Assembly: GCA_022790575.1 (NCBI GenBank)
Contig: JAAVXM010000050.1
Coordinates: 5,515 to 69,514 of the forward strand
Length of the DNA stretch: 64,000 nucleotides
Direction: 5' to 3'
DNA from: Clostridia bacterium
Lineage (GTDB): Bacteria > Bacillota > Clostridia > TANB77 > CAG-508
The notes under the pieces were generated by a model. It was not told the DNA's origin. It did no database searches and saw only the letters and a program-made list of their open reading frames with translations. Every line of letters begins with the position of its first letter. The first letter of the stretch is position 1. A program made the position numbers and the translations under genes. Below are positions 18,471 through 35,023 of the stretch, piece by piece.

Positions 18471-18484
18471 TAACTTTCCCCCTT

Positions 18485-20038
18485 TTACATATATCTACCC
18501 ATTATTGCTAATAATGTAAATATATTTAATACAAATGACATTGTCATCATTTTGGTATTTAAATTCTTAACTTCCCAATTTGTATCTTTTTTCACTAAAC
18601 ATAATAATAGCAAAAATAAAATTGGTGTATAATATCTTCCTTGTACTCCACATATTCTTTCTAACCCAACTGGAGTCCATGTTAAATACATATATATTTT
18701 TAATAATGCTGATATTGCAAGCAATAAAGTTATTATCCAAACCTTAGATTTTGCACTTATTGAATATTTGCTTTTTTCAGATATTGCTGATATTACTAGT
18801 AATATTATAAATATTAATATTATTCCCATATTTACATCAACATCTAACCAGCCTAGTTGTGCTCCAACAGCCCCAAATATATATTCTTGTCCATACATTA
18901 AGAATTCCATTATAAATGTTTTTGTAAATTCAAGTGGTTGTTCTTTAATGTATGATAATTGTCTTCCTGCATCAACATTTGCTGATTTAAAATATTCAAC
19001 AAATACTTCTGGTGCTGACTTGAATCTTGATGTAAATACAAACCATACACTTGAAAATATCGCACCTATTAAAATCATTATTCCTATTGTTTTTAATGTT
19101 TCTTTTCTTTCTTCTTTGTTTTTAAATAATTTAATAAATAAAATTCCTGCAATTAAAATATAAATATATTTAAACATTGCTATTAATGCTGTTAATACAT
19201 ATAAAATAATTTTATCTTTTTTCGTTAGTGGTGTTTCTTTAAATACCATGTATAATAAATGAACTATATAATAAACTAATGTTATATTTAATATTGCATC
19301 AGCTGAACAAGACCCTACTTGCTGTAACATCATTGGCATACATAAATATATTGACATCATAATTTTTCCAAATGGTATTTTTCTTATTGTAAAATAACTA
19401 AATATTAAAAATATTACTATATTAAATAATCTTGCTAAATAAATTGCTAAAAATATATTAATATTTAATAATCTACATATTGCTATCGAAAATGAAGTTC
19501 CAATATATAATATTGGTGAATTACCTTGAGCTGCACATGCTATTTTAACTTGTTCTGAATAATTCGTTTCTTTTGATATTTCATCATATACATTTTTATA
19601 ATTTTGAATACGTAAATATGAGTAATTTTCTATCTCTTTTGTTATTACTGAATATGAATTTCCTTGTTCATCAATTTGTGTAGCTAAATTCCCTAATGAA
19701 ATATCATATGCTTTTACAATATGAGAGCCTTCATCTGGTACATTTAGTGGCAATACAAATATTGCATATCCTATACTTATTGGAATTGCAAATGCAAGAA
19801 AAATCTTTTCTACTACACCTTTATTTTTTTTACAAGTATATATTATTATTGCAATAACTACTATTCCTAGTATTATTGAATATATTATTTTATTTAATGG
19901 GTAATATCCTTGATATGCTTTTGTTGTGAATACACTTAGTACCTGTGTTGCTAGTAATGTTGAGATAAGAAATTCTATAACATATGTTGATTTACTTAAT
20001 ATTGTATTAAATATTTTTAATATCTTTTCTTTTTCCAT
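18485..20038 (-). CDS. DUF2142-like polytopic membrane protein; putative GT-C glycosyltransferase using a lipid-linked sugar donor
   Basis: 517 aa, many TM. It has a first-loop motif NVPDEGSHIVKAY resembling the PDE..H signature of DUF2142. It sits directly upstream of the GtrB-like/DUF2304 pair. Confidence 0.6.
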   Translation of the reverse strand: MEKEKILKIFNTILSKSTYVIEFLISTLLATQVLSVFTTKAYQGYYPLNKIIYSIILGIVVIAIIIYTCKKNKGVVEKIFLAFAIPISIGYAIFVLPLNVPDEGSHIVKAYDISLGNLATQIDEQGNSYSVITKEIENYSYLRIQNYKNVYDEISKETNYSEQVKIACAAQGNSPILYIGTSFSIAICRLLNINIFLAIYLARLFNIVIFLIFSYFTIRKIPFGKIMMSIYLCMPMMLQQVGSCSADAILNITLVYYIVHLLYMVFKETPLTKKDKIILYVLTALIAMFKYIYILIAGILFIKLFKNKEERKETLKTIGIMILIGAIFSSVWFVFTSRFKSAPEVFVEYFKSANVDAGRQLSYIKEQPLEFTKTFIMEFLMYGQEYIFGAVGAQLGWLDVDVNMGIILIFIILLVISAISEKSKYSISAKSKVWIITLLLAISALLKIYMYLTWTPVGLERICGVQGRYYTPILFLLLLCLVKKDTNWEVKNLNTKMMTMSFVLNIFTLLAIMGRYM

Positions 20039-20045
20039 TAATTAA

Positions 20046-21092
20046 TCATTCCTTTTCTAGCTTCGATTCTCGTATTGATAAAATTTCTTTGTCTTTTTTG
20101 AAGAAATTTATAAGACTCTTGTTTATCATATATAGTAATTTTGCAAATATTATTATTTCAAGCCATATTGTTATATATAATAATACAGTTCCTGCAATTC
20201 CATATACTTGTCCTTGAAAATTGCTTTCAACTTTTTGTATTAAATAATGATGAACTAAAAATATTGCATAAGAATATTTACCAATTGTTGTAAATATCTT
20301 TTGTATTATTATATTTTTTATTTTTTGTCCTACATATGCTATAGTAATAAAAAGTCCATATGCTGAGATATTTGTAAACAATACTAACATGTTCATATCT
20401 TTTGCTGGTAGTAAATATCCTATAATTGCTATAATTAGCCCTATCCCTGCTTGCCATATTTTAAATTGTTTTACATTTATTATATACATTCCCAATAAAA
20501 AGCTATATATAGATACTATAAAGTTTTTATTTATTGGCATTGTTCCATTTTTGTAAAATAGTAATACTGCTAAATTTAATATTGTTGCAATTACAAATGT
20601 TGTTTTTGGATATTTATTTACAATTTTCCTTAAAAGCGGAAATACCAAATATATTAATACTATACATCCTAAAAACCATTCACCAATTAAATAAAATGTC
20701 TTTATATATGGGCTTAAATATCCATCCATTGCAAATAGTGATGCTAACATATTTTGTGGTGGTAGCCCCCACACATTTCCTTTATTCATATAAAATAAAT
20801 ATATAAATAGTGCTCCATATGCTATCCAAAACATTGGATATATTCCTACAAATCTTTTTTTTATGTATTGCTTCAATTCTAACTTTTCTTTATAGTTATA
20901 CATAAGAGATGCACCTGATATCATAAAAAATAGTGCAACTCCTATGATTCCCCATTTTCCATTAGAAAATATTGTGTTTGTTCCAACAATATTATTCTCT
21001 GCAAAATGAGCATAAAAATGGTATGTTACTATCATGAACATTGAAAGAACTCTTATAAAATCTATATAAAATATTTTTTCCTTTTTATCCAC
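20046..21092 (-). CDS. Acyltransferase family 3 membrane O-acyltransferase (OafA/WecH-like)
   Basis: 348 aa, about 10 TM, N-terminal FYIDFIRVLSMFMIVTYHF motif. Confidence 0.8.
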   Translation of the reverse strand: MDKKEKIFYIDFIRVLSMFMIVTYHFYAHFAENNIVGTNTIFSNGKWGIIGVALFFMISGASLMYNYKEKLELKQYIKKRFVGIYPMFWIAYGALFIYLFYMNKGNVWGLPPQNMLASLFAMDGYLSPYIKTFYLIGEWFLGCIVLIYLVFPLLRKIVNKYPKTTFVIATILNLAVLLFYKNGTMPINKNFIVSIYSFLLGMYIINVKQFKIWQAGIGLIIAIIGYLLPAKDMNMLVLFTNISAYGLFITIAYVGQKIKNIIIQKIFTTIGKYSYAIFLVHHYLIQKVESNFQGQVYGIAGTVLLYITIWLEIIIFAKLLYMINKSLINFFKKDKEILSIRESKLEKE

Positions 21093-21093
21093 T

Positions 21094-23316
21094 TTATCTT
21101 CCCCTTAATTTTCCCTTTAGTTTTTTTGCCACTTTCCATATTTTTGTTCTTCTCATTGTTTCATATCTATGAACAACATGTCCATATAAGGCTCTATATT
21201 GATTGAATTCTTGTTCTTTTGATTTCCTTCTATAGTCCATGAATTGATATACATCTATTACTTCTTTGCTTGTGTCTGCATTTTCATATAATTTATTATA
21301 ATATTCTTGCATTTCTTCAATTGGCTTGAATTCATATTTTTCATAATTATTTTTCTTTTCTCTATACTCTTCACGATTTTTACTTATTTCTTCAATTTTA
21401 TTTAATATATCAGCAGCACTTGAATTTATATCTATAGTCCATCCTAGACCATCTTTTTTTACTCTATCTCCTACTGCACCTATATTAAATGTAATTACTG
21501 GAATTTGCGCCATATAACATTCTGTAAGTGTATATGAGTATGTTTCAGGCCAAGTTGCAAAAATACATACTAAATCTATATCATTTTTTATAAGTAATTG
21601 AGGTAATTCTCCTCTTGTATATTTTCCATGGTTTATATAACTTGAGTGACTTCTTGCAAGTTCTCTATCTTCTGATTTTCCAAATAAATGTATTTTTATA
21701 TTTGATTTTTTGTTTACTTTTATTAATTCTTTTAAAATATTACTTCCTTTATGTATTGCCATTGAACCTACAAATGCTATGTTAAAATACTTTGATATTC
21801 TTGCACTTTCTGATGGTTTTGAAATTATTACTCCATGTTCAACTACTTCTATTGGCAAATCTTTGTATACTTTATCAAATAATTTTTTTGTATTTTCAGA
21901 AGGTACAATTATTTTATCAAATTCTTTTAATACTTGTTTACATCTTGTTTGCCAATTTGTTAATATATTGCTATTTACTCCATATCTTATGTTTAAACAT
22001 TTTGCACAATCTTTTGTTTTATCATATTCACAATATTTATCTTTATATATCATATTTATTGATGGACATATCATATATAAATCATGTAATGTAATTATTG
22101 AAAATATCTTTCTTTTTTTAGCTATCTCTATTGCATCAAATGTTTGGAATAAGAAGTGGTGTACATGTAAAACATCTATACTAAAACTATCAAATATATT
22201 TTGTAGCATTTCTTTATATGAATTATTTGTATATACTATTTGCCCATAATGTTGTATGTCTGTTTTGTAATTTGCAATTTCTTTTGCATATTCATCTGTA
22301 TATAAGTATAACTTAAATCTTGGTAAATCATATTTGTCAGGTGCTATTACAAAACTTGCAATATTGTTTTTCATATTTGATTTTATAATGTCTTTTATAT
22401 GAAGTGATGTTCCCCCTGTCATTTCCATATTTTCTTCCCATTCATTTACTAAATATAATATTCTCTTTTTGCCATATAATTTTATGTTTATATTTATATT
22501 TTCTTGTATATCTCTTATTGGATTATTTGCAATAAAATTATCTGTTTTTTGTACATATATTGGGTGTTTTTTTCTTAAAAATCCCATATGTTCTTCTATT
22601 AATGCAGCTCTTGTGGCAGTCATGTTTTCTTTTTTAAAACTTTGTGTTCCTTTATGATATATAAATGTGTTATCACATAATACATTTATATATCCATGGT
22701 CTAATGCTCTGTAGCAAAAATCATTTTCTTCTCCATATCCTTTACCAAATGTTTCTGCATCAAATATACCTAATTCTTTTATTACCTCTCTTTTTATATA
22801 CATACAAAATCCATTTCCTGTTGTTAATTGAGGATATCTGTTTTTTGAACTTTTTTCTATCATTTCTGCATATTCTTCTAATGTCATGTTTTTTGGTAAT
22901 TCATTATCTATTCCAAAATTTGGCACAGAACAAATTGTCCCATTATTTGTAAGTGGTGTAACTGTTGCTATATACTTGTTTGAATAAGCACATTTTTGGA
23001 TTTTCTCTACCCAATTTTTTGTTACTTCTGTATCACTATTTAATAAAATAACATCATTTTTTGAATATGACATTCCTTTATTTACTGTTCCTACAAATCC
23101 TAAATTTTCTTCATTATCTAATACTTCTATATTTTTGTCTGTATTTTCTTCTTGATATTTTTTTAACATTGGAAATATTTTTTCATCTGGACTTTTATCA
23201 TTTATCAAAATTAATGTATGTTTATTTAAATCTGTGTTTCTAATTACACTTTTTATACATTCTTCTGTGAATTCGTATGCATTATATACTGGTACAATTA
23301 TATCAACACTTTTCAT
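21094..23316 (-). CDS. Bifunctional glycosyltransferase (N-terminal GT2, C-terminal GT4/GT1-type domain)
   Basis: N-terminus VDIIVPVYNAYEFTEECIKSVIRNTD..ILINDKSPD..LLNSDTEV. The C-terminal half has a GT-B pattern (ILYLVNEW..GGTSLHIKD; VGSMAIHKG...GKSED; PETYSYTLTE). Confidence 0.8.
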   Translation of the reverse strand: MKSVDIIVPVYNAYEFTEECIKSVIRNTDLNKHTLILINDKSPDEKIFPMLKKYQEENTDKNIEVLDNEENLGFVGTVNKGMSYSKNDVILLNSDTEVTKNWVEKIQKCAYSNKYIATVTPLTNNGTICSVPNFGIDNELPKNMTLEEYAEMIEKSSKNRYPQLTTGNGFCMYIKREVIKELGIFDAETFGKGYGEENDFCYRALDHGYINVLCDNTFIYHKGTQSFKKENMTATRAALIEEHMGFLRKKHPIYVQKTDNFIANNPIRDIQENININIKLYGKKRILYLVNEWEENMEMTGGTSLHIKDIIKSNMKNNIASFVIAPDKYDLPRFKLYLYTDEYAKEIANYKTDIQHYGQIVYTNNSYKEMLQNIFDSFSIDVLHVHHFLFQTFDAIEIAKKRKIFSIITLHDLYMICPSINMIYKDKYCEYDKTKDCAKCLNIRYGVNSNILTNWQTRCKQVLKEFDKIIVPSENTKKLFDKVYKDLPIEVVEHGVIISKPSESARISKYFNIAFVGSMAIHKGSNILKELIKVNKKSNIKIHLFGKSEDRELARSHSSYINHGKYTRGELPQLLIKNDIDLVCIFATWPETYSYTLTECYMAQIPVITFNIGAVGDRVKKDGLGWTIDINSSAADILNKIEEISKNREEYREKKNNYEKYEFKPIEEMQEYYNKLYENADTSKEVIDVYQFMDYRRKSKEQEFNQYRALYGHVVHRYETMRRTKIWKVAKKLKGKLRGR

Positions 23317-23330
23317 AATTATTTACTCCT

Positions 23331-25019
23331 TTAAATATTTAGTGATAATCCTGTATTTTTTTTGCTTAAATTTGGACTAAAATATATGTCTCCCTTTTCA
23401 TAATAAGCTTTCCATTTGCTTAATATCTTTTGTTCATCTGTTTTGTCTGCTTGTTCTACTTTTTCAACACATATAGAAACAATTGGGTTTAGTACAACTT
23501 GCTTTTTGTCATCTAATATTTTTAAGCAAGTATCAATACTCACTCCTAGTCCACTCATTTCCTCTGTAAATTGTCCTATTTTTATAAACTCTTCTTTTCT
23601 TATCATTGCATATTTTACATACACACATGATACATTATGTATTATAAGTAATCTCTGCATATATGTACCAATATCTTTTGGCGCACCTTTATACAAGAAA
23701 TCACCTATTCCATTCATTCCTAATATAATCCCACTATGTTCAACTTGTCCTTGCTCATTATATAACTTTGTTCCAACAATTCCAACTTCTTCATCTTGGC
23801 ATATTCCAACTAAATCTTCTATATATGTCTGTTTATCTATGTTTACCAGATTTTTATCTAATATCATAAAATATTCGCCTTCTGCCTCTGCAACAGCTTT
23901 ATTGTAAGCTTTAAATACATTTTCTTCTGGTTTTATTGTTTTTATATCATCTATTTGTTCATTTGATATTACAATTATTTCATAGTTACTATATGTTGTA
24001 AATTTTACCTTTTCTACTAGTTCCTCTATTTTTGGTTTTGCTTCATTTTGTGCATCTATAATTATACTAACTTTTGGGTTTCCTTTTACTTTATATTTAA
24101 CTTCATAGCTTCCTGGAGTTAGTCCATCTGTTACTTCAACTTCTGTATCTAAACTTCTTTTTATATGGTCTTTTATAACTTTTTTTCCTACCTCAAAAGC
24201 ATATGGTTTTGAATCTGAATTTCCTGCTGTTGAGTTTTGATGTACTCTCCAATGATATAATACTTGTGGTATATGAACTATTTTATTTGTTTGCTCAAAT
24301 GCTCTTGATACTATATCAAAATCTTGGCTTCCATCATATTCACTTCTAAATCCTTCAAGTTTGTCCATAAGTTCTTTTTTAAATACACTAAAATGACATA
24401 TATAATTAGCACTTCTTAATGTGTATGGTGATGCATCTGGCTTGAAAAATACTCCATACCTAATTCCATCTGCTTTTTCTAATTTGTCTTCATCTGAATA
24501 TATAAATTCCACATCAGGATTTTCATTTATTGCCTTTGCAACCTCATATAATGAAAATGCAGGCAATAAATCATCATGGTCTAATAACCCTATATAATCT
24601 CCTGTTGCTAATGTTAATGCTTCATTTGTGTTCCCTGAAATCCCTTTATTTTCACCTATATATTTGTATTTAATTCTACTATCTTTTTCGACAAATTCCT
24701 GCATATACTCTATTTTTTCTGGTGAACCATCACCTAAACATAATTCCCAATTAGAGTATGTTTGTTCTTGTAGACTTTTTACTAGTTCTTCAAAAAATTT
24801 TTTTGGTGTATTATATACTGGAACTACAATACTAATTTTAGGTGTAATTTTAAATTTAACTTTCTTTTGTTTTTCTAGTTCTTCCTTATTTGGTTCATTT
24901 TCTCCTATCCACTTTTTATATATTCTTTCTTCTTGTGTATATTTCCCAAAAACTTTTGTATATACTTTCTTAGCCATTTGCCTTCTTTTTGAGTCTTGTG
25001 GTAAAATTTTTTCTAACAT
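23331..25019 (-). CDS. Two-domain family 2 glycosyltransferase
   Basis: First GT2: ISIVVPVYNTPKKFFEELVKSLQEQTYSNWELCLGDGS..LDHDD. A second GT2-like half begins VSIIIDAQNEAKPKIEELVEKV. Confidence 0.8.
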   Translation of the reverse strand: MLEKILPQDSKRRQMAKKVYTKVFGKYTQEERIYKKWIGENEPNKEELEKQKKVKFKITPKISIVVPVYNTPKKFFEELVKSLQEQTYSNWELCLGDGSPEKIEYMQEFVEKDSRIKYKYIGENKGISGNTNEALTLATGDYIGLLDHDDLLPAFSLYEVAKAINENPDVEFIYSDEDKLEKADGIRYGVFFKPDASPYTLRSANYICHFSVFKKELMDKLEGFRSEYDGSQDFDIVSRAFEQTNKIVHIPQVLYHWRVHQNSTAGNSDSKPYAFEVGKKVIKDHIKRSLDTEVEVTDGLTPGSYEVKYKVKGNPKVSIIIDAQNEAKPKIEELVEKVKFTTYSNYEIIVISNEQIDDIKTIKPEENVFKAYNKAVAEAEGEYFMILDKNLVNIDKQTYIEDLVGICQDEEVGIVGTKLYNEQGQVEHSGIILGMNGIGDFLYKGAPKDIGTYMQRLLIIHNVSCVYVKYAMIRKEEFIKIGQFTEEMSGLGVSIDTCLKILDDKKQVVLNPIVSICVEKVEQADKTDEQKILSKWKAYYEKGDIYFSPNLSKKNTGLSLNI

Positions 25020-25020: not shown

Positions 25021-27687
25021 TTACTTTCTCCCTTTAAAAAATCTTTTTATTTTATTCTTTATTTTACTATTTTCTATTTTTTCATTTTCTAAACTTTTTA
25101 TATATTCGCCTTGTTCCTTATTTACTTTATTTGCATCTTGTAAATATTTCTCAACATTTTCTATATGTGCCTTAAGTTCTTCTCTTTGTTTCTCTAATTG
25201 TTTAATATATTCTTCTTTTTTTATTCCATCTTCTTTGTAATCATTTAATTGTTTCTTTGCAATTGCTACTTCATTTATATCTACTAACTTCTCTAATGAA
25301 TTTTGATTTATCTTCTTCATTTCATCATCTATTATAATATTTTGAATATATTTTTCTATTTTTTCAAATATCTCTAAGTACTCTGTAAGATTGAATTTAT
25401 TTAACATTTCTGTATATTGGAATATTTTATTTATTTCTTGATTATATACATATAAATTATTTATTGCTCTATATAATATGAACTCAATTGGAATCCTTTC
25501 AATATACCATTCTTGGTCAAATAATATAAAATCTCCATTATCTAAAAAGATATTTTCAAATACAATGTCTATATATCCATCTTTTATTATTGTTAAATCA
25601 TTTACTTTTTCTGAGTTGATATTTATATTTTCATTTAGCTCTACAGGTTCATCTTTTATTAACTTGTTTTTTATACATGTATACCATTTATCTATTAATT
25701 CATATGTTCCATCTATATCTTTATTTAATAATTTTTGTGCTAGAATTTTGTCTAATGTGTCTAAATTTATATATTTACAATATATATGATTTTCTCTTTT
25801 TTCATCAATTATATTAAATCCTAGTTTTTTAAGTTCTATACTGTTTCTTTCTATTTTGTTAATATGCTCTTCTGCTTGCTCAGAACATATATCCTTTTCA
25901 ACGTAATCATCATATATTTTTGTCATTAACCTATATTTAGCTTTTCTTATGTTATTAAAACTAACAAATTTGGGTTGGTCTTTTTGTTTATTATTAATTT
26001 CTATAAAATATGAATTAGCAAAATCCTTGAATTTCCCTTCTTTTGTTATTTGTTTTAATGCTCTTAATTCATCAAATACTACTGCACTACCATTTCTATA
26101 GCAGATGTTATACATTAATTTTGTTGTATTTTCATTTGGCATATATTCATCTGAAAATATAACATTACACATTCTGTAATTTGGTAATGGATAATAAAAT
26201 TTGTAATTTTCAAAACCATTTTGTTTTAATTCTTTTTCTATACTACTTTTTGAAAATGTCTTTTTATCATCTTCCATTATTGTTGCATATATATTTCCAT
26301 ATTTAGGTTTTGCTCCTGCAAATGCTGAAATTGAAAATTTATTATCTACTATTAATAATATAATTCCATTTTCTTTTAAATATTTTTTTACATCTTTTAT
26401 ATATTTTAAATCATATAAAATTATATAATCATATTGTTTCTTTTCAAAATTCATTAATCCTGTAGTAATTTCTAATATATCTGAATCTTCTTTAAAATTG
26501 TACCATTTTAATATATTATTTCTAGCTTCTAGATTTTCTTCTATTATAGAAATATCTATTTCATCCATTAAAGCTTTCTCTTCATTTATATTGTCATCAT
26601 TTGTTTCACGGAACATATTAGTTCCCATCTTTTTTAAGTGTTCTATATTGTAATATACAGATTGGTCTATTGGTTTTACTGCTATATAGTTATTGTCTTT
26701 TAACCAATTCTTTAATATCTCTATCATTTCATCTTCAGTTGTTTCATTTTGAATTAAGTCTGGCATCATATTTATAAGTCTCATTTTATAATCTGGTTTG
26801 AATTCATTTTTATGAATTAATGCATGATAAAGTAGTGTATAAAAATAATCTGTTTCATTTAATGTAAAAAATCCTTTTTCATTAAATACTCTATTTTTAA
26901 GAATTCTTTCTTCTAATTCTTTACAATAATAATTGTCTCCTATATGTCTTAAATCAAAATTTGCATATTTATCTTCAACTTTTGTTCTATAATGAATTCT
27001 ATATTCTTCTGGGAAGACTTTTTCAGCATTTAATACATAAATAGCATTTTCATATGAATCACATATTATATCTATGTCATTATGACCATTTACATATATC
27101 TCATCTGGCAGACTCTCATAATTTCTTAATATTGCATAATTCAAGCAATTATTTAATGCATAAAACATATCATTTACTGATTTCCAGTTTTCTGCTCCAA
27201 ATAAATCCTTTTTTATTGATATAATTTCTTCTTCTTTTGTAATTTCTTTTAAATAGTCTTTTAAATTTTTATCTAATAATAATGTTATATCATGGTTAGT
27301 CTCTATTTCATCATTTGTTGCATGTACTTTATGACCACCTCCTGTCATTTGTCTAAACATTTCTTTGCAATCAAACATATTTATATTAACTACTTTTTCA
27401 CCTGTACTTGTATTCCTTTTTTCATATATTGGATTTTCATCATTTACTATTATTAGCAAGAATTTCCCTTTGCCACAATGTTCTGCCTTTTCTTCTGCAT
27501 TTGGCAAATTTGTTCCATAAAACCTTATTATATTTTCTATGAACTTTTCTTGACTCCATTCTATTTCATATACATTTATAATGTCAAACTTCTCTTTTAT
27601 TTCTGCCAATATTTCTTGTTTTTTATATATTGCATTTTCCCATAAAATGAATAAATGTGTTTCTTTCTGTTTCATATTCAACCTCAT
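25021..27687 (-). CDS. Multidomain WbdD-like protein: N-terminal unknown and NTase-like regions, degenerate class I methyltransferase-like segment, kinase-like domain, C-terminal coiled-coil and basic tail; candidate polysaccharide chain terminator/length regulator
   Basis: 888 aa. The likely start is ATG 27675 (MKQKE), which has a GAGG RBS. Motifs: NYAILRNYESLPDEIYVNGHNDIDIICD; ILEITTGLMNF..YDYIILYD..ILLIVDNKFSISAFAGAK; kinase-like GYIDIVFENIFLDNGDFILFDQEWY. Aa ~785-875 are heptad-rich (KQLEKQREELKAHIENVEKYLQD), ending KIKNKIKRFFKGRK. Confidence 0.5.
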   Translation of the reverse strand: MRLNMKQKETHLFILWENAIYKKQEILAEIKEKFDIINVYEIEWSQEKFIENIIRFYGTNLPNAEEKAEHCGKGKFLLIIVNDENPIYEKRNTSTGEKVVNINMFDCKEMFRQMTGGGHKVHATNDEIETNHDITLLLDKNLKDYLKEITKEEEIISIKKDLFGAENWKSVNDMFYALNNCLNYAILRNYESLPDEIYVNGHNDIDIICDSYENAIYVLNAEKVFPEEYRIHYRTKVEDKYANFDLRHIGDNYYCKELEERILKNRVFNEKGFFTLNETDYFYTLLYHALIHKNEFKPDYKMRLINMMPDLIQNETTEDEMIEILKNWLKDNNYIAVKPIDQSVYYNIEHLKKMGTNMFRETNDDNINEEKALMDEIDISIIEENLEARNNILKWYNFKEDSDILEITTGLMNFEKKQYDYIILYDLKYIKDVKKYLKENGIILLIVDNKFSISAFAGAKPKYGNIYATIMEDDKKTFSKSSIEKELKQNGFENYKFYYPLPNYRMCNVIFSDEYMPNENTTKLMYNICYRNGSAVVFDELRALKQITKEGKFKDFANSYFIEINNKQKDQPKFVSFNNIRKAKYRLMTKIYDDYVEKDICSEQAEEHINKIERNSIELKKLGFNIIDEKRENHIYCKYINLDTLDKILAQKLLNKDIDGTYELIDKWYTCIKNKLIKDEPVELNENININSEKVNDLTIIKDGYIDIVFENIFLDNGDFILFDQEWYIERIPIEFILYRAINNLYVYNQEINKIFQYTEMLNKFNLTEYLEIFEKIEKYIQNIIIDDEMKKINQNSLEKLVDINEVAIAKKQLNDYKEDGIKKEEYIKQLEKQREELKAHIENVEKYLQDANKVNKEQGEYIKSLENEKIENSKIKNKIKRFFKGRK

Positions 27688-27734: not shown

Positions 27735-29000
27735 TTATACTTTTTTAAACTCAACTTTTGTATCTGTAGCAAAATATCCAACAACAATCTTTTTTGACAT
27801 AACTTCAAAGAATAATGCATCATAGTTCCTATTTATTGGTACTACTTCTCCATCTACTCCAAATTTGCTACAACTTATCGACAATGTGTATTTACCTGGT
27901 GCTAACATTAGCTTTTGCTTAAATTCACATATGTATTCTTCTCCCTTTTTACAACTGCCTGTGTATAATTTCTGTATATTTGTGTTTGTTCCACATATCT
28001 CTTTTCCTATAAAATCTTTTATTGTAATTGAAAATGTAGGACATTCAATATCTTTCAAAAATCTAGCTTTTAATTTTATAGTAATTTCTTCATCATTATA
28101 CATTGCTGGTACTGGTTCATCCTTTTCATTAAAAATACCATAATCTAAAATTTTCACTTCTCCTGTACCATATACAATCATATTTGGATTTAAGTCAAAG
28201 TTCTTTTTCCATTTACTTTCTTCTTCAACTTCTTGAAATTCTTGTTCTTTACATCTGTCTTTATCTAACATCCCTGTTATTAGTTTTTTGTATTTCTCTA
28301 CACCTTCTTTTACATCTCCATCATATATCTTTTTACCAGAGTTTAAAATAATAACTCTACTACAGTTTTCAAGTACATCTGCAACATTATGTGTTACATA
28401 TAAGATTGTCTTTCCTTTTTCTTTGAATTGTTGGAATTTCTTGAAACATTTTAATTGAAATGCCATATCTCCTACAGATAATACTTCATCAACTATTAAA
28501 ATATCTGGGTCTACATTTATAGCACATGCAAATGCTAGACGTGCAAACATTCCTGATGAATATGTTTTTACTGGTTGATATAAGTGGTCTCCTATATCTG
28601 CAAAATTTATTATATCCTGTTTTGTTGATTCTATTTGCTCATTTGTTAATCCCATTACTTGTCCATGTTGATATATATTTTCTTCTCCTGTTAATTCAGG
28701 ATTAAATGCTGCTCCTAATTCTAATAGTGAACTAATTTTACCATTTACATTTAGTTCACCAGATGTTGGACTTACTACACCTGTTATCATTTTTAGTAAT
28801 GTTGATTTTCCTGCCCCATTTTTTCCAAGTATTCCTAGCACTTCTCCTTTATTAATATTTACATTAAGGTCATCTATAGCACTAAATGTCTCATGATTAT
28901 GAACAAATGGAAATACCGCTTCTACTAATCTTGCTTGTTTATTTTTAAACATCTTATATTCTTTTTTTACATTCTTAATTTCTATTATAGGTTCACTCAT
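27735..29000 (-). CDS. wzt: Polysaccharide ABC transporter ATP-binding protein (Wzt/TagH family) with C-terminal ~150-aa extension (Wzt_C-like glycan-binding domain)
   Basis: Walker A GKNGAGKST, signature YSSGMFARLAF, Walker B ILIVDE. Beta-rich C-terminal extension EVKILDYGIFNEKDEPV...KYTLSISCSKFG. Confidence 0.9.
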   Translation of the reverse strand: MSEPIIEIKNVKKEYKMFKNKQARLVEAVFPFVHNHETFSAIDDLNVNINKGEVLGILGKNGAGKSTLLKMITGVVSPTSGELNVNGKISSLLELGAAFNPELTGEENIYQHGQVMGLTNEQIESTKQDIINFADIGDHLYQPVKTYSSGMFARLAFACAINVDPDILIVDEVLSVGDMAFQLKCFKKFQQFKEKGKTILYVTHNVADVLENCSRVIILNSGKKIYDGDVKEGVEKYKKLITGMLDKDRCKEQEFQEVEEESKWKKNFDLNPNMIVYGTGEVKILDYGIFNEKDEPVPAMYNDEEITIKLKARFLKDIECPTFSITIKDFIGKEICGTNTNIQKLYTGSCKKGEEYICEFKQKLMLAPGKYTLSISCSKFGVDGEVVPINRNYDALFFEVMSKKIVVGYFATDTKVEFKKV

Positions 29001-29032: not shown

Positions 29033-30061
29033 CTATTTAGAACTATGATTTCCTCTCTTCTTTAAAACATATCTAATTCTAAATAGAGGTCTGCCTATTG
29101 CTGGTAAATTCATAATTATAAAGTTCAATATATAATAACTAATTTTTTCTGTTTTATACAATTCATGAAATACATTCCAATTTCTAAAATTAAAGTTTCT
29201 CTTATCTTGTAACATTTTATAATATTCATATGCTTTTTTATTTAAATTTTGTAATTCTTCAGGAAATTTATCATTATATTCAACATATGTTCCAAAAACT
29301 CCTAATTTAACATTTATAAATAGTTCTCTTACTTGGTCTAATTTCTTAAATCCATGAGAAATTTTATTTACTCCTACTTGGTTATTTCCATGTTGCCTAT
29401 ATTTTATATATTTTTCTGGAATATATGCTACCTTTCCATTAATTCCTGCCATTATTCCAATCCAGTGGTCATGTATTAAATATTTTGAGTTTTGTGGTAA
29501 TGGAATAATATTTTTTATCGTTTTACTTCTTGCTAATATTGTACATCCAGTTACACAATTGTATAAATAGTTTAATCTATTACTATTTATATATTTATTA
29601 ATTTTTCTATTTAATAGCATGAAATCTCCAAAAGATTCATACATTGTTTTTAATTCTTGGTCTACTACTTCTAAATCTCCAAAAACCAAGTCCGCATTTT
29701 CACTTTTTAATTTTTCAAATGATTTCTCTACTTTTTCTTTTAGCCATACATCATCTTGGTCTGCTAACATGTAATATTCACTTTGTACTTGTTTAAGTAA
29801 AAACTCTATATTTTTTACTACACCTAAATTATGTGGCTGTATAACTAATTTTATTCTACTATCTTTTTTTTCATATTCTTTTAAAATTTGTGTGGTACTA
29901 TCTTTTGAACAGTCATCTGATATTATTAAACTTATATTTTCATATGATTGTTGCAAAATACTATCTATTTGTTCCTTAAGATATTTTTCACCATTATATG
30001 TAGCTAGTAATATATCTATTTTTTCATTCATTTTAAAAATCATTCCTCTCTTATCATGCAC
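29033..30061 (-). CDS. Family 2 glycosyltransferase (paralog of 30882..31892)
   Basis: IDILLATYNGEKYLKEQIDSILQQSYENISLIISDDCSKD..ADQDDVW. The probable true start is ATG 30031 (MNEKID), by alignment with the paralog N-terminus MEEKVD. Confidence 0.85.
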   Translation of the reverse strand: MHDKRGMIFKMNEKIDILLATYNGEKYLKEQIDSILQQSYENISLIISDDCSKDSTTQILKEYEKKDSRIKLVIQPHNLGVVKNIEFLLKQVQSEYYMLADQDDVWLKEKVEKSFEKLKSENADLVFGDLEVVDQELKTMYESFGDFMLLNRKINKYINSNRLNYLYNCVTGCTILARSKTIKNIIPLPQNSKYLIHDHWIGIMAGINGKVAYIPEKYIKYRQHGNNQVGVNKISHGFKKLDQVRELFINVKLGVFGTYVEYNDKFPEELQNLNKKAYEYYKMLQDKRNFNFRNWNVFHELYKTEKISYYILNFIIMNLPAIGRPLFRIRYVLKKRGNHSSK

Positions 30062-30073: not shown

Positions 30074-30865
30074 TTATAATACATCTGCAAAATCCTTTTT
30101 ATTCTTTTTGAATACATGGTTTCCCCATATAAACATGAATATAGTTATTACCCAAAAGATTATAGTATATATACCATGACCTGCTGTTATGATATTTCCT
30201 CCCATAAATGCTTGCCTAAATGCTGTAACTAGATATGTGAATGGCATACATTGAACAACTTTTAATATTGTGTGGTGTTCTGCTAACATTGATACACTCC
30301 AAACAATAGGTGTTGCCCAGAAAAATAATTGCATTAATATTCCTAATAAATTCGAAAAGTCTGGTACAAGTGTTGTTAATGCTGATGTTAATCTTGTAAA
30401 AGCCACAATAAATGCATATAATGCAACAACCACATATAATATAATTAATACATTTGGTGTATATCCAAATACTGCACATAATATTGTTGCAACTAATATT
30501 AAAAATATTGATACAAAAGCACTTCCTATTATTGAGATTATTGGTATTATATCTACTGGAAATACTACTTTTTTTACCAAATAACTATAATTCCTTATTG
30601 ATGAACTCGCACTCATTATACTATCATTTATACATTGCCATATTGCCATTCCTGGTAAAAACCATACTACATATGGAGAACCTCCATCTCCTTGCATTCC
30701 AAATATAAATTGAAATACTATTACATACATCATCATAAATACAAATGGTTGTAAAAATCCCCATATACTTCCTAAACTTGTACTTGCAAATCTGTTTTTA
30801 AAATCGTTTTTTCCAAGCTTCCATGCAATCTTTTTATTTTTCCATAATATTTTTATAAATTCCAT
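30074..30865 (-). CDS. wzm: Polysaccharide ABC transporter permease (Wzm/TagG, ABC-2 type)
   Basis: 263 aa, 6 TM. N-terminus KLGKNDFKNRFASTSLGSIWGFLQP is typical of ABC-2 polysaccharide exporters. Confidence 0.85.
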   Translation of the reverse strand: MEFIKILWKNKKIAWKLGKNDFKNRFASTSLGSIWGFLQPFVFMMMYVIVFQFIFGMQGDGGSPYVVWFLPGMAIWQCINDSIMSASSSIRNYSYLVKKVVFPVDIIPIISIIGSAFVSIFLILVATILCAVFGYTPNVLIILYVVVALYAFIVAFTRLTSALTTLVPDFSNLLGILMQLFFWATPIVWSVSMLAEHHTILKVVQCMPFTYLVTAFRQAFMGGNIITAGHGIYTIIFWVITIFMFIWGNHVFKKNKKDFADVL

Positions 30866-30881: not shown

Positions 30882-31892
30882 CTATTGTGCATCTATCATA
30901 ATATATTCATTTTTTATTTTAGCAAACTTTATATATCCAATTATTGGGAAATGAAATAATATAATTTCTCTTATGCTTTTTTTGAATTGGTTCTTACCTG
31001 CAAGAATTTTAAAATATCCTATTATATTTAAGTTTATCTTTTTTGATTTTAGAATACTTTCATAATATTTCTGAGCTTGTCCTATAATTTTGTTGTTTTG
31101 CTCTTTTTGGCAATATTCTTTACACATTATTATACCTTTTAAATATGCTCTTTCTATTGCATCTGTTCTATATTTTAAATATGACTCATATCCTTCTCCA
31201 TTTTGATTTTTCCACCTTGTAATATTATTATTTAAGCTTCTTCCTCCAAATACATTACTTGCATGTAATCTGTAATCAAATAATGGCTCTTTTATATAAC
31301 TTATCCCTTTTCCTTCATTTGCTATAAATGCAGCTAACCAGTCATGTGCTATAACACTATCTTTAAATGGTATCATTTTTTCTTTTACTTCTTTTGTAAT
31401 TATTTGTGAACACCCTATTCCTACACATCTAGTTACTGCTAGTCTATTTGTTCCCTTTATTATTGGAACATTTTTGTATTTAAAATAATCTTCTTGTAAT
31501 ACAACTCCATCTTCATCAACTTGTCTACAATTGCTATATACCATGTCAACATTATCTCTTACTATTTGTTTTAAACTCTTTTCTACTTTGTCTTTATGCC
31601 AAACATCATCATGGTCTGAAAACATTATATATTTAGATGTTGATTGTTTTAATAAAAATTCAAAATTTTTATTGTATCCTAGATTTGTTTGTTGAATAAA
31701 TAATTTTATTCTTTCATCTTTTTTTTCATATTCTTTTAATATTTTTTCTACTTCTGGTTCTGTTGAATTGTCATCACTTATATATACTTGCATATTTTTA
31801 TGTGTCTGTTTTAATATACTTTCTATTTGCTTTCTTAAATATTTTTCCTTGGTATTATATGTGGTAACTAATATGTCTACTTTTTCCTCCAT
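30882..31892 (-). CDS. Family 2 glycosyltransferase
   Basis: VDILVTTYNTKEKYLRKQIESILKQTHKNMQVYISDDNSTE..SDHDDVW. First gene of the co-directional locus. Confidence 0.85.
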   Translation of the reverse strand: MEEKVDILVTTYNTKEKYLRKQIESILKQTHKNMQVYISDDNSTEPEVEKILKEYEKKDERIKLFIQQTNLGYNKNFEFLLKQSTSKYIMFSDHDDVWHKDKVEKSLKQIVRDNVDMVYSNCRQVDEDGVVLQEDYFKYKNVPIIKGTNRLAVTRCVGIGCSQIITKEVKEKMIPFKDSVIAHDWLAAFIANEGKGISYIKEPLFDYRLHASNVFGGRSLNNNITRWKNQNGEGYESYLKYRTDAIERAYLKGIIMCKEYCQKEQNNKIIGQAQKYYESILKSKKINLNIIGYFKILAGKNQFKKSIREIILFHFPIIGYIKFAKIKNEYIMIDAQ

Positions 31893-33313: not shown

Positions 33314-35023
33314 CTATTTCAAATACAATGATGGTCTAAATCCATCCCAGTCATCAGTTTTTCCATTAATATCTTCTCTATAACCTGCAGGTTTTACTGT
33401 AGCTGTATCATTATATTTTCCTCCTCTACTTGCACGTGCTCCTTGTACAACTACTTCCTCTACATATTCTAATTGGTTTCCACCCATATCATAAATATTA
33501 CATACTGGGGTAGTTAGACCTGTTTTCATCTTTTGACCTGTATAATTTCCTTGAACTGAATTTGTTGGATATGTTGGATAACTTTTTTCTATAAATTTAA
33601 GTGTTGTATCCCACCCTTGCCCAGTAGTCAACTTCGAATATACATAATCAGCCTCATAGTTATTTACATCTGCAAAATTTGTTGCCAAATTATTTGCTGT
33701 AGTATTTGCTAAACCACTATATGCTGTTTGGCCCTTTTTTACAACAACCTTATTATTTACATTTCCAGCCTCAAATCTCCCTATATAAAATCCACCATAT
33801 TTCTTTATACTATTAAAATCTGTTACATTTATTTGGTCATTACTTGTATCTATTGCTATTCCTTTTCCAAAATCTGTTCTTTTATATTCTGTTGCTGATG
33901 TTACATTTTGTCCTTCTCCACCTTCAACATAACATGGTATCCATACAAATTGGTTTCCTGTTTTGTCTTCTATTACTTTTCCCCCTTGTATTGTTGATGA
34001 ACTTTCAGATGATTCAATAAATCCTTTCGGAAGCCACCATTCCCCATCTGGAGCTATCTTTTTTGTATTCTTTCCTTTAGTCTGTACCGTTACCTCTTTT
34101 TCCTCTGATTCATTTCCACATTTATCTATTGCTTTCACTCTTATTGTATATGTTGCTTCAATAGTTGTTTTGATTATTACTTTTTCATTAAAATTGAAAT
34201 CTCCTGTTACTGGAGTTACTCCTTCTTCTGGAGTTATATTGTAATGAAAATTACTTACTCCTGATTGGGTATCTGTCGCTATTGCACTCAACTCAATATT
34301 TAGACCATCTACAATTGAAGTTACATCTCCCATTACTGGTCCTGTTCCATCAATTCTAAGTTGTACATCTATTGTTTTCGAATTTGTATTTCCATTACTA
34401 TCTGTTGCTTCAATTGTAATTGTTGTATCTTCTGTTATATTTTCTATCTTATATCTACCATTTGTTTCTATTGAAAAATCTGAAATTGGTGTTGAACCTT
34501 TTTTTGCAATTACTTTTGTAATATTTCCTCCACTGAATGTTTTGATTATACCTGTTATGCTTACTTCTGCTTCTGATGGTTTTACCCATCCATCACTGGC
34601 ATTGTTACTTACTTTTGCTGTTATTAGTATTTGATTCTCTATTGTTGAATTTCCAGCTATTTTTGGCACACTTCTATCTATTTCAAATGCATAGTTATCA
34701 ACAATAATAATGTTATCTATGATTTCTACATTTTCTATTTCATTTGAAATATATTCATCTAAAAAAACATTTTCATTATACTCGCTATTTGTCTTTTTTT
34801 CTACTTGCGCACTATTTAAAACCATTTCCAACTTTTCTCTTGCCTCAGCTTTACTGTTTTCCTTTTTTGCTTTTTGTGCTTGAGCTATTATTCCATTTTC
34901 TCCTGTTAACATTGCTATACTTACACCTGCTAAAATAAGCAAGACTATAAGTGTGACAATTAATGCTATCAATGTAATTCCTCTCGTACCTCTCATTCCA
35001 ACTTTCCTCCTATGTTTCAACAT
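33314..35023 (-). CDS. Prepilin-like N-terminal anchor protein with Ig-like middle region and C-terminal FGE-sulfatase / C-type-lectin-fold domain
   Basis: The likely start is ATG 34996 (MRGTRGITLIALIVTLIVLLILAGVSIAMLTGENG), with GGAGG 9 nt upstream. The middle region is beta-rich (TITIEATDSNGN, KAIDKCGNES). C-terminal FGE-like landmarks: NQFVWIPCY, GGFYIGRFEAG, NIYDMGGNQLEYVEE, ARASRGGKY, DGFRPSLYLK. Confidence 0.65.
   Translation of the reverse strand: MLKHRRKVGMRGTRGITLIALIVTLIVLLILAGVSIAMLTGENGIIAQAQKAKKENSKAEAREKLEMVLNSAQVEKKTNSEYNENVFLDEYISNEIENVEIIDNIIIVDNYAFEIDRSVPKIAGNSTIENQILITAKVSNNASDGWVKPSEAEVSITGIIKTFSGGNITKVIAKKGSTPISDFSIETNGRYKIENITEDTTITIEATDSNGNTNSKTIDVQLRIDGTGPVMGDVTSIVDGLNIELSAIATDTQSGVSNFHYNITPEEGVTPVTGDFNFNEKVIIKTTIEATYTIRVKAIDKCGNESEEKEVTVQTKGKNTKKIAPDGEWWLPKGFIESSESSSTIQGGKVIEDKTGNQFVWIPCYVEGGEGQNVTSATEYKRTDFGKGIAIDTSNDQINVTDFNSIKKYGGFYIGRFEAGNVNNKVVVKKGQTAYSGLANTTANNLATNFADVNNYEADYVYSKLTTGQGWDTTLKFIEKSYPTYPTNSVQGNYTGQKMKTGLTTPVCNIYDMGGNQLEYVEEVVVQGARASRGGKYNDTATVKPAGYREDINGKTDDWDGFRPSLYLK

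What the first reader, a model, noticed from the sequence alone, without database searches (positions are those of the whole stretch)
25021..27687. WbdD-like kinase/coiled-coil candidate 'molecular ruler' in a Gram-positive ABC-transporter polysaccharide locus, with a gutted methyltransferase module
Seen in sequence:
- An 888-aa cytoplasmic protein is encoded directly upstream of the Wzt-type ATPase gene (transcribed just before it).
- It contains a protein-kinase-like block (GYIDIVFENIFLDNGDFILFDQEWY, a D..N catalytic-loop plus metal-binding-D arrangement).
- A class-I methyltransferase-like stretch precedes it. Its motif I is ILEITTGLMNF (no GxGxG), and only ~6 residues separate it from the YDYIILYD strand.
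- It has a ~90-residue heptad-rich C-terminus and a terminal basic amphipathic tail, KIKNKIKRFFKGRK.
- Two further N-terminal modules are present, one with an NTase-like DIDIICD motif.

Established knowledge: in E. coli O9a, WbdD (methyltransferase-kinase-coiled coil-membrane helix) caps the growing O-antigen. Its coiled coil sets chain length, and the Wzt C-terminal module recognises the cap.

Inference: this protein is a terminator/ruler for the wall polysaccharide. It may work by phosphorylation only, since the methyltransferase looks deleted. Chain-length control in Gram-positive ABC-dependent wall-polysaccharide pathways is poorly described.
Basis: partly seen in the sequence, partly recalled or inferred. 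Interest (0 to 1): 0.7.

Follow-up and report, generated by a model that had tools for sequence, protein, structure and literature searches.

The report
Multi-headed polysaccharide chain-terminator enzyme
This gene of an uncultured gut Clostridium most likely encodes the enzyme that caps, and so stops, a growing cell-surface polysaccharide before export; its kinase half belongs to a terminator class proven in Klebsiella in 2024, while its front half is an uncharacterised two-domain module that may add a new kind of cap.

Summary
The ORF is real (25021-27687, minus strand; probable start at M5, giving 884 aa). One error: the gene lies directly downstream of wzt, not upstream.

The protein has five parts:
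- an NDK-fold domain;
- a nucleotidyltransferase-fold domain;
- a methyltransferase remnant without its SAM-binding core;
- a kinase-fold domain with invariant K598/D707/N712/D724;
- an 83-residue helix with about six clean heptads and a basic tail.

Residues 388-888 show no detectable homology to WbdD. They are clearly homologous to the methyltransferase-kinase terminator of Klebsiella pneumoniae O7 ORF6 (hhalign 99.6%, E 7e-24). D707 aligns with the proven catalytic D441.

Relatives occur in 80 Clostridia genomes. All 77 loci with enough flanking DNA also encode Wzm and a Wzt with a carbohydrate-binding module.

So the functional reading (kinase-only terminator) is supported. WbdD membership is not, and the ruler role is untested.

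The new element is the N-terminal module. It belongs to a family of about 1,600 clusters with no Pfam model. In Clostridia it can stand alone with its own coiled coil and a WbdD-like 'SWK' tail. The Wzt binding module co-varies with its presence.

Verdict: a new variant of a known kind.

The parts
25021..27687 (-). Whole ORF, 888 codons; likely real start is the ATG at 27675 (M5), giving 884 aa
27208..27675 (-). aa 5-160: nucleoside-diphosphate-kinase-like fold with conserved GGGHKxHATN...E motif (H119, H122, T124, N125, E129)
   Evidence: AF2 pLDDT 92. Foldseek hits to NDKs: E 3e-4 to 1e-2, probability 1.0, target-normalised TM up to 0.66. Invariant residues. Sequence-level match to E. coli Ndk is not significant.
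26632..27195 (-). aa 165-352: nucleotidyltransferase-like fold with invariant H202, D204, D206 (DIDII), D245/D251, Y287, H288, K293
   Evidence: Foldseek hits to MenT1 (8an5_B) and ANT(2'')-Ia (5kqj); invariant residues
25993..26526 (-). aa 388-565: remnant of an O7-type class-I methyltransferase. Strands 2-3 and the SAM loop are deleted. The DNxF(G/S)IxxFAG, YPLPNY and FANSY motifs are retained.
25303..25992 (-). aa 566-795: protein-kinase-like (APH-like) domain. K598 in strand 3; catalytic loop D707-x4-N712; metal-binding D724 (DQEW).
   Evidence: Foldseek hits to Mph/APH/MTR-kinase/Bud32/RIO, E 9e-5 to 2e-3. Invariant residues. D707 aligns with the proven catalytic D441 of K. pneumoniae O7 ORF6.
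25030..25278 (-). aa 804-886: single long helix; clean heptads at aa 828-869 (25081-25206)
25024..25077 (-). aa 871-888: basic tail KIENSKIKNKIKRFFKGRK. It looks like a degenerate form of the NSxSWKxTxPxRK tail found in relatives and in WbdD.
27735..29000 (-). Wzt: ABC ATPase plus C-terminal carbohydrate-binding module (Wzt_C), transcribed immediately before the ORF
30074..30865 (-). Wzm permease (ABC2_membrane)
29033..30061 (-). GT2 glycosyltransferase between wzm and wzt
23331..25019 (-). GT2 protein (562 aa; GT2-type matches in both halves, aa 63-220 and 337-416), candidate polymerase component. Its RBS lies inside the end of the ORF.
21094..23316 (-). GT2 + GT4 protein (740 aa), candidate polymerase component

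Best explanation
The ORF encodes a soluble, membrane-peripheral chain-terminating enzyme. It belongs to an ABC-transporter (Wzm/Wzt)-dependent cell-surface polysaccharide pathway in an uncultured low-GC Clostridium.

**Proposed mechanism**
- GT2/GT4 polymerases extend the glycan on a lipid carrier at the cytoplasmic face.
- The kinase-fold domain (aa 566-795) uses ATP to phosphorylate a hydroxyl of the non-reducing terminal sugar. This stops extension.
- The methyltransferase domain that methylates this phosphate in the Klebsiella O7 prototype has lost its SAM site here. It survives only as a structural or acceptor-binding scaffold. The cap is therefore an unmethylated phosphate, possibly further modified by the N-terminal NDK-like/nucleotidyltransferase-like module.
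- The C-terminal coiled coil oligomerises the protein and holds the catalytic heads away from the membrane-proximal basic tail and the polymerase.
- The carbohydrate-binding module of Wzt then recognises the cap and admits only capped chains for export.

**Shown**: folds, conserved catalytic residues, homology to the O7 terminator, and gene linkage.

**Inferred**: the substrate, the cap chemistry, the spacer/ruler role, and cap recognition by Wzt.
For: **Homology to the O7 terminator**
- hhalign of the 108-sequence family profile against nine O7 ORF6-N orthologs gives probability 99.6%, E 7e-24, over 292 columns. The orthologs were rebuilt from SI Fig. 9 of PMC11231755.
- The alignment spans the methyltransferase and the kinase N-lobe up to the catalytic loop. 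GYIDIVFEN aligns with GFIDAVPQN, and D707 with D441.
- hmmsearch E-values range from 5e-23 to 3.5e-11.
- The paper shows that O7 ORF6 phosphorylates O-3 of the terminal rhamnose, then methylates the phosphate, and that D441A is inactive.

**Kinase fold and catalytic residues**
- The AF2 model has pLDDT 93.7.
- Foldseek matches APH, Mph, MTR kinase, Bud32 and RIO with probability about 1.
- K598, D707, N712 and D724 are invariant in 108 homologs.

**Methyltransferase decay**
- The window's core is 21 residues against about 66 in intact relatives. Only 9 of 108 homologs keep GxGxG.
- Ten loci carry a separate intact methyltransferase of the same type, with its own coiled coil.

**Genomic context**
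- All 77 GTDB loci with enough flanking DNA encode Wzm and Wzt+Wzt_C on the same strand: upstream in 76, downstream in 1.
- The same layout occurs in metagenome loci.
- The order wzm-wzt-terminator-polymerase matches E. coli O9.

**Coiled coil and tail**.
Against: - There is no biochemical evidence for this protein or any Clostridial relative.
- Foldseek TM-scores to kinases are low (0.2-0.48).
- The O7 alignment could be tested only up to the catalytic loop, because the published alignment ends there.
- The coiled coil is short: about 42 clean heptad residues within an 83-residue helix. That is a far shorter coiled coil than in WbdD, so a ruler role is not assured.
- The window protein lacks the SWK tail motif found in many relatives.
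- The polymer, its terminal sugar and the donor for the N-module are unknown.
- The N-module could change the cap chemistry entirely.
Confidence: 0.6

Rival explanations
1. Composite or novel cap. The N-terminal NDK-like/nucleotidyltransferase-like module is itself a terminator head. It either acts on the kinase-installed phosphate (for example nucleotidylation or phosphoryl transfer through a phospho-histidine) or caps a different hydroxyl. The epitope read by Wzt would then be something other than phosphate or methyl-phosphate.
For: - The module is strongly conserved, with catalytic-looking invariant residues.
- It has no Pfam or NCBIfam model.
- It spans about 1,639 clusters at 50% identity.
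- It is fused in turn to methyltransferase, ePK kinase, GT2 and TPR domains.
- It often lies immediately after Wzt+Wzt_C.
- Stand-alone copies in Clostridia carry their own coiled coil and NSxSWKxTxPIRK tail, like the kinase and methyltransferase terminators.
- The Wzt binding module diverges more between loci that differ in N-module status, at equal ATPase-domain identity: a difference of 0.147, reached by 0 of 2000 permutations. The 12 nearest binding-module neighbours of the window's Wzt all come from N-module loci.
Against: - No activity is known for the module.
- The match to NDK is at fold level only; hhalign against E. coli Ndk is not significant.
- 45 of 61 informative metagenome loci with the module have no detectable Wzt_C nearby, so it is not a dedicated terminator.
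- The co-variation test is confounded by shared ancestry.
Confidence: 0.25
2. Decorating enzyme rather than terminator. The kinase phosphorylates internal residues or a subset of chains without controlling length or export, as the terminal pyruvate does in Klebsiella O1.
For: - The coiled coil is short.
- The locus also holds a Wzx-type flippase and components for post-export glycosylation, so several modification routes coexist.
- PMC11231755 notes that a terminal group is not always needed for export.
Against: - Linkage to a Wzt that carries a carbohydrate-binding module is invariable. In every studied case that module marks cap-dependent export.
- The protein is homologous to a proven terminator.
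Confidence: 0.1
3. True WbdD ortholog: a diverged member of the WbdD methyltransferase/eukaryotic-like kinase family.
For: - It has the same module order (methyltransferase, kinase, coiled coil, basic tail) and the same gene order.
- Relatives share the post-coiled-coil S-x-S-W-K/R motif with WbdD: 46 of 54 WbdD relatives and 28 of 108 family tails, against 0.02 expected by shuffling.
Against: - hhalign of the family against the WbdD family aligns no part of the kinase, and only motif I of the methyltransferase at 54% probability.
- WbdD relatives score on Pfam Pkinase/APH; this protein scores on none.
- WbdD is not among the top 50 fold matches.
- Significant homology goes instead to the O7 class, which the authors describe as different from WbdD in sequence and structure.
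Confidence: 0.03

Closest known systems
K. pneumoniae O7 ORF6 N-terminal methyltransferase-kinase terminator (PMC11231755, 2024)
   Same: - Sequence homology is significant across the methyltransferase and the APH-like kinase up to the catalytic loop.
- They share the motifs ENQLGLKYFAG/DNxFGIxxFAG, PLPDYK/YPLPNYK, LANSF/FANSY, and FIDAVPxN/YIDIVFEN with the catalytic Asp.
- In both, the catalytic modules are followed by a coiled coil.
- Both lie in a Wzm/Wzt(CBM) locus.
   Different: - The SAM-binding core is deleted here.
- No Ig-like binding module lies between the kinase and the coiled coil (the AF2 model is all helical there).
- The polymerase GT2 modules are on separate, translationally coupled genes.
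- An extra 350-aa NDK-like/nucleotidyltransferase-like module sits at the N-terminus.
- The host is a Clostridium. The paper lists only proteobacterial and cyanobacterial orthologs.
E. coli O9a / K. pneumoniae O3 WbdD
   Same: - The module order and the gene order wzm-wzt-terminator-polymerase are the same.
- The logic of terminator plus Wzt binding module is the same.
- Family members share the S-x-S-W-K/R tail motif after the coiled coil.
   Different: - The kinase shows no detectable sequence homology.
- The WbdD kinase is eukaryotic-like (Pfam Pkinase); this one is APH-like and unannotated.
- The WbdD coiled-coil region is much longer. WbdD is a trimer with a mapped membrane helix (PMC3482155, PMC11231755).
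WsaE of Geobacillus stearothermophilus (S-layer glycan)
   Same: It is a Gram-positive, Wzm/Wzt-linked enzyme whose terminal modification is proposed to stop chain growth (PMC2943079).
   Different: WsaE caps with a 2-O-methyl group from an active methyltransferase fused to two rhamnosyltransferases. It has no kinase. Not compared at the sequence level here.
Aminoglycoside/macrolide phosphotransferases and Bud32/RIO atypical kinases
   Same: These are the best fold matches of aa 566-795, with the Lys / D-x4-N / D catalytic arrangement.
   Different: Sequence-only searches find no similarity. The likely substrate is a lipid-linked glycan terminus, not an antibiotic or a protein.
Nucleoside diphosphate kinase; MenT/ANT(2'') nucleotidyltransferases
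   Same: These are the fold matches of aa 5-160 and aa 165-352. An His-containing loop lines up with the NDK catalytic His loop. A DxD motif is present as in nucleotidyltransferases.
   Different: Sequence similarity is not significant. The two folds are fused and sit in polysaccharide loci. Function is unknown.

Membership tests
O7 ORF6-N type methyltransferase-kinase terminators | Sequence homology across the methyltransferase and the unannotated kinase domain | tested here: met
   hhalign probability 99.6%, E 7e-24, 292 columns. hmmsearch E 5e-23 to 3.5e-11. Targets were rebuilt from an OCR copy of SI Fig. 9 and end at the catalytic loop.
O7 ORF6-N type methyltransferase-kinase terminators | Catalytic Asp equivalent to D441 | tested here: met
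   D707 aligns with D441 and is invariant in 108 homologs
O7 ORF6-N type methyltransferase-kinase terminators | Intact SAM-binding glycine loop (G91/G93) | tested here: not met
   ILEITTGLMNF has no glycine loop, and strands 2-3 are deleted (21 against about 66 residues). Only 9 of 108 family members keep GxGxG.
O7 ORF6-N type methyltransferase-kinase terminators | Coiled coil following the catalytic modules | tested here: met
   AF2 helix at aa 804-886 and six heptads
O7 ORF6-N type methyltransferase-kinase terminators | Phosphorylation, then methylation, of the terminal sugar | not testable with these tools
   Needs enzymology and NMR/MS
WbdD family | Eukaryotic-like kinase domain homologous to WbdD (Pfam Pkinase/APH hits) | tested here: not met
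   No Pfam hit. hhalign of kinase against kinase gives nothing. WbdD relatives carry PF00069/PF01636.
WbdD family | Active N-terminal class-I methyltransferase | tested here: not met
WbdD family | Extended C-terminal coiled coil followed by a membrane-binding and polymerase-recruiting region | tested here: inconclusive
   A shorter coiled coil and a basic tail are present. The S-x-S-W-K/R motif is present in relatives but not in this protein. Binding cannot be tested here.
WbdD family | Encoded next to a wzt that carries a carbohydrate-binding module, followed by the polymerase | tested here: met
Nucleoside diphosphate kinase family (N-terminal domain) | NDK fold | tested here: met
   Foldseek probability 1.0, E 3e-4 to 1e-2, target-normalised TM up to 0.66
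Nucleoside diphosphate kinase family (N-terminal domain) | Sequence homology and the catalytic His/Ser/Glu set | tested here: inconclusive
   hhalign against E. coli Ndk is not significant (probability 0.25%), but HKxHATN overlies THGSDS. No Pfam NDK hit.
Nucleotidyltransferase fold (second domain) | NTase fold with paired metal-binding carboxylates | tested here: met
   Foldseek hits to MenT1 and ANT(2'')-Ia. D204 and D206 are invariant, and D245/D251 are conserved.

The most novel reading that the evidence does not exclude
The N-terminal NDK-like/nucleotidyltransferase-like module is a previously unrecognised class of glycan-terminus-modifying enzyme: a third terminator 'head' beside the methyltransferase and the kinase.
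- In gut Clostridia it is delivered to the polymerase complex by the same coiled-coil and SWK-tail device as the other heads, either on its own or fused to them.
- It would build a cap chemistry not yet described, for example a nucleotidylated or pyrophosphorylated sugar terminus.
- The carbohydrate-binding module of Wzt would have co-evolved to read that cap.
Probability: 0.3. Interest if true: 0.75.

Novelty: new variant of a known kind. Interest (0 to 1): 0.55.

Why it matters
- **Chain-length control in Gram-positives.** How ABC-transporter-made wall polysaccharides are sized is well worked out in a few Enterobacteria only. This locus extends the second (APH-like) methyltransferase-kinase terminator class, proven in 2024, into uncultured human and animal gut Clostridia.
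- **A modular toolkit.** There the terminator occurs as separable heads (methyltransferase, kinase, N-module). Each can carry its own coiled coil and a shared tail motif that WbdD also has.
- **Natural experiments.** The graded decay of the methyltransferase across the family contrasts phosphate with methyl-phosphate caps.
- **A handle on an unannotated family.** The N-module is a widespread enzyme family with no annotation. Its genomic position and its co-variation with the Wzt binding module make its function directly testable.
- **Caveat.** If the cap is simply phosphate, the finding is an incremental extension of a known mechanism.

Tried and rejected
- **Sequence-only annotation.** Pfam and NCBIfam scans of the whole protein gave nothing significant. 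The only hints were Methyltransf_23 at E 0.082 and coiled-coil-type noise. phmmer against PDB sequences gave chance hits only. The family profile against PDB hit methyltransferases but no kinase.
- **WbdD homology.** I fetched WbdD from E. coli HS and built a 54-sequence family alignment. hhalign on whole proteins and on separated domains aligned only the motif-I region at 23-54% probability, and nothing in the kinase. Rejected.
- **NDK sequence homology.** hhalign of the N-terminal domain against E. coli Ndk was not significant. Only the fold evidence is kept.
- **N-module as a dedicated terminator.** 45 of 61 informative metagenome loci lack a detectable Wzt_C, and one homolog sits in a Wzy-type locus. 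Rejected as a general rule.
- **N-module fusion versus methyltransferase decay.** The core is reduced in 15 of 20 fused proteins against 49 of 116 others. This is a trend only and is not corrected for phylogeny.
- **Other dead ends.**
  - The 456-aa gene between wzm and wzt in L005 is not an N-module.
  - Literature searches found no description of such a protein in Clostridia.
  - A Pfam scan of alignment A3 exceeded the size limit.
  - One script call printed nothing.
- **Organism.** It could not be named. The exact protein occurs only in two metagenome runs.
Full report
**The observation**

The window is about 25% G+C, and almost all genes lie on the minus strand. An 888-codon ORF occupies 25021-27687 on the minus strand. 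A GAGG ribosome-binding site lies 8 nt upstream of the second ATG (27675). The database copy of the protein is 884 aa, so M5 is the likely start.

The neighbours, in order of transcription, are as follows:

| Coordinates | Gene product |
|---|---|
| 30882-31892 | GT2 |
| 30074-30865 | Wzm |
| 29033-30061 | GT2 |
| 27735-29000 | Wzt (ABC_tran plus Wzt_C, E 3.9e-33) |
| 25021-27687 | this ORF |
| 23331-25019 | GT2, 562 aa |
| 21094-23316 | GT2+GT4, 740 aa |
| 20046-21092 | acyltransferase |
| 18485-20038 | DUF2142 |
| 17754-18470 | small GT2 |
| 17398-17754 | DUF2304 |
| 16319-17341 | GT2 |
| 14807-16267 | Wzx-type flippase |
| 12889-14763 | DUF6077 |

Wzt is transcribed first and the ORF follows 47 nt later. 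The ORF's stop codon abuts the start of the next GT2 gene, whose RBS lies inside the ORF's last codons. No terminator-like site on the coding strand interrupts the cluster. PolC, AdhE and RNase R elsewhere in the window mark a Bacillota chromosome.

**Anatomy**

Sequence-only methods annotate nothing. Homolog searches show that the protein is modular. Residues ~5-350 form one unit, here called the N-module. Residues ~388-800 form a second unit that also exists alone as 500-600-aa proteins.

AlphaFold2 models built on these alignments are confident, with pLDDT 92.3 and 93.7.

- **aa 5-160: NDK fold.** Foldseek places this stretch on nucleoside diphosphate kinases (probability 1.0, E 3e-4 to 1e-2, target-normalised TM up to 0.66).
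- **aa 165-352: nucleotidyltransferase fold.** The matches are MenT1 and ANT(2'')-Ia.
- **Conserved residues of the N-module.** Across 76 homologs the conserved positions include Y57, K67, T93, K108, R112, the loop GGGHKxHATN, E129, H202-x-D204-x-D206, D245/D251, Y287, H288 and K293. Sequence comparison with E. coli Ndk is not significant, although HKxHATN falls on the catalytic THGSDS loop.
- **aa 388-565: methyltransferase remnant.** The family profile hits class-I methyltransferases (3cc8, E 1.3e-5). The window protein has only 21 residues from the start of strand 1 through the FDYI strand, against about 66 in intact relatives, and it has no glycine loop.
- **aa 566-795: protein-kinase-like fold.** The order of secondary-structure elements matches that fold. 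The best fold matches are macrolide and aminoglycoside phosphotransferases, methylthioribose kinase, Bud32 and RIO (E 9e-5 to 2e-3, probability about 1, but TM only 0.2-0.48). K598, D707, N712, D724 and R581 are invariant in 108 homologs.
- **aa 804-886: one long helix.** Clean heptads cover aa 828-869. The heptad score is 6.5 against 3.7 +/- 0.8 in shuffles, reached by 3 of 1000.
- **Tail and topology.** The last 18 residues carry a net charge of +7. There is no transmembrane segment.

**What it is related to**

WbdD was taken from the E. coli HS O9 locus, where the order is wzm-wzt-wbdD-wbdA. A 54-member WbdD family alignment was built. Profile-profile comparison aligns only the methyltransferase motif-I region (probability 23-54%) and nothing in the kinase. 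WbdD relatives score on Pfam Pkinase/APH; this protein does not.

The literature points to a better relative. PMC11231755 (J Biol Chem 2024) shows that K. pneumoniae O7 ORF6 carries an N-terminal methyltransferase. That is followed by an unannotated 223-residue domain resembling the kinase AmiN, and then a coiled coil. The enzyme phosphorylates O-3 of the terminal rhamnose and methylates the phosphate. D441A abolishes the activity. The authors call this pair different from WbdD in sequence and structure.

I rebuilt nine ortholog fragments from the machine-read SI Fig. 9.

- The family profile finds them at E 5e-23 to 3.5e-11.
- hhalign gives probability 99.6%, E 7e-24, over 292 columns, reaching the catalytic loop. 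There GYIDIVFEN aligns with GFIDAVPQN, and D707 with D441.

The C-terminal half is therefore a homolog of the O7-type terminator, not of WbdD. The published alignment stops at the catalytic loop, so the kinase C-lobe could not be compared.

**Context in other genomes**

- A scan of species-representative genomes returned 80 loci, all from uncultured Clostridia MAGs, mostly from gut samples. Every one of the 77 loci with enough flanking DNA encodes Wzm and Wzt+Wzt_C on the same strand: upstream in 76, downstream in 1.
- The terminator gene is directly adjacent to wzt in 24 loci. In the rest it is separated by one to three genes.
- The intervening genes fall into five groups:
  - a membrane-anchored metallo-beta-lactamase-fold protein in 30 loci;
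  - a GT2 in 22 loci;
  - a stand-alone intact methyltransferase of the same O7 type, with its own short coiled coil, in 10 loci;
  - a stand-alone N-module in 4 loci;
  - MetK in 2 loci.
- Full-length orthologs lie in near-identical loci. In locus L007 the two halves are split: an N-module+GT2 protein is followed by a methyltransferase-like/kinase/coiled-coil protein.

**Decay of the methyltransferase**

Across 108 homologs the SAM loop is canonical in 9. It is G-x-N-x-G in many others and is deleted to 20-45 residues in at least 34. The conserved function of the family is therefore the kinase plus the methyltransferase's C-terminal scaffold, which holds the motifs DNxFGIxxFAG, YPLPNYK and FANSY. 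Where methylation is kept, it is sometimes supplied by a separate paralog. The window's locus has no methyltransferase gene, so a methyl-phosphate cap is unlikely there.

**The coiled coil and the tail**

The region after the kinase varies from 29 to 212 residues among homologs. It often consists of 14-residue KQxYIxxLE repeats in variable copy number. Three kinds of C-terminal ending occur:

- NSxSWKxTxPxRK in 30 of 108;
- ENMKxVKxxKKLRG in 22 of 108;
- short basic/aromatic tails in 51 of 108, including the window protein.

The first ending is the same motif that follows the coiled coil in WbdD (HRSRSWRMTKGYRY at residue 592 of E. coli WbdD). It is present in 46 of 54 WbdD relatives and in 28 of 108 family tails, against 0.02 expected by shuffling. 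Length variability fits a spacer or ruler role but does not prove one.

**The N-module**

- It belongs to a family of 1,639 clusters at 50% identity (514 of them at E <= 1e-30) with no Pfam or NCBIfam model.
- It occurs alone, or fused to methyltransferases, eukaryotic-like kinases, GT2 or TPR domains.
- Several fusions lie immediately after Wzt+Wzt_C. In a metagenome sample, however, only 16 of 61 informative loci show this, and one homolog is in a Wzy-type locus.
- In the Clostridial Wzt-linked loci, stand-alone N-modules carry their own ~35-residue heptad helix and NSxSWKxTxPIRK tail. Environmental stand-alone copies lack both.
- At equal identity of the ATPase domain, the Wzt carbohydrate-binding module is less conserved between loci that differ in N-module status. 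Median identity is 0.45 against 0.59 in one bin and 0.50 against 0.75 in another. The overall difference is 0.147, reached by 0 of 2000 label permutations.
- The 12 nearest binding-module neighbours of the window's Wzt all come from N-module loci.

Together these points suggest that the module is a third terminator head that shapes the epitope Wzt reads. The co-variation test does not remove shared ancestry.

**Mechanism and verdict**

The best-supported reading (confidence about 0.6) is a kinase-type chain terminator of the O7 class.

- It phosphorylates the non-reducing terminal sugar of a lipid-linked glycan made by the downstream GT2/GT4 enzymes.
- The dead methyltransferase acts as a scaffold.
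- The coiled coil and basic tail position the heads at the polymerase and membrane.
- Wzt exports only capped chains.

Folds, catalytic residues, homology and linkage are shown. The substrate, the cap chemistry, the ruler function and recognition by Wzt are inferred.

The kind of system is known (WbdD; O7 ORF6; WsaE in Gram-positives), so this is a new variant, not a new category. The open and more interesting question is what the N-terminal module adds.

Noticed in passing
window 2407-10485 (-): A 2,692-aa ORF with a TTG start carries GH94 catalytic and supersandwich domains plus a glucoamylase-like domain. This is the architecture of cyclic beta-1,2-glucan synthase or phosphorylase, which is unusual in a small low-GC Clostridial genome.
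   Followed up: no
window 12889-20038 (-): The same operon holds a small GT2 (17754-18470), DUF2304 (17398-17754), and two large membrane proteins: DUF2142 (18485-20038) and DUF6077 (12889-14763). This looks like a lipid-carrier-based, post-export glycosylation set; compare the three-component systems of PMC11127046. A Wzx-type flippase (14807-16267) coexists with Wzm/Wzt.
   Followed up: no
L010:4890-5849 and 29 other GTDB loci: In 30 of 77 related loci, a membrane-anchored metallo-beta-lactamase-fold protein (HxHxDH; Pfam Lactamase_B, 3.5e-7) lies between wzt and the terminator gene. It could be an extracytoplasmic phosphodiesterase acting on the cap. The window has no such gene.
   Followed up: partly
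L012:2756-3937, L034:3787-5019, L089:17966-20092: A short motif (N/R)SxSW(K/R)xTxPxR follows the coiled coil in Clostridial kinase, methyltransferase and N-module terminator proteins. The same motif occurs in proteobacterial WbdD (residue 592). It may be a shared docking element for the polymerase or the membrane.
   Followed up: partly
homolog tails, e.g. P0003, P0124, P0133: The coiled coils are built from 14-residue repeats (DNxxKQxYIxxLE) in one to four copies. This would let the helix length change in two-heptad steps.
   Followed up: partly
L008, L095 and many marine metagenome contigs (L107-L175): The N-module is widespread outside Clostridia. One database entry is named for Candidatus Pelagibacter. 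There it is usually fused to a eukaryotic-like protein kinase domain and mostly lies away from any detectable Wzt_C.
   Followed up: partly
window 33314-35023 (-) and 10618-12750 (-): A 569-aa ORF has no Pfam match. A 710-aa protein has a GH25 muramidase domain only in its last 180 residues, leaving about 518 N-terminal residues unannotated.
   Followed up: no
window 35236-37671 (-): An AAA_14/DUF4143 ATPase gene lies next to a 397-aa ORF that combines an ABC transmembrane region with only the C-terminal part of an ABC ATPase domain. The second ORF may be a truncated or frameshifted exporter.
   Followed up: no
L015:2629-3768: In two related loci a SAM synthetase (MetK) gene sits between wzt and the terminator genes. 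This fits methyl-cap formation in loci that keep an active methyltransferase.
   Followed up: no
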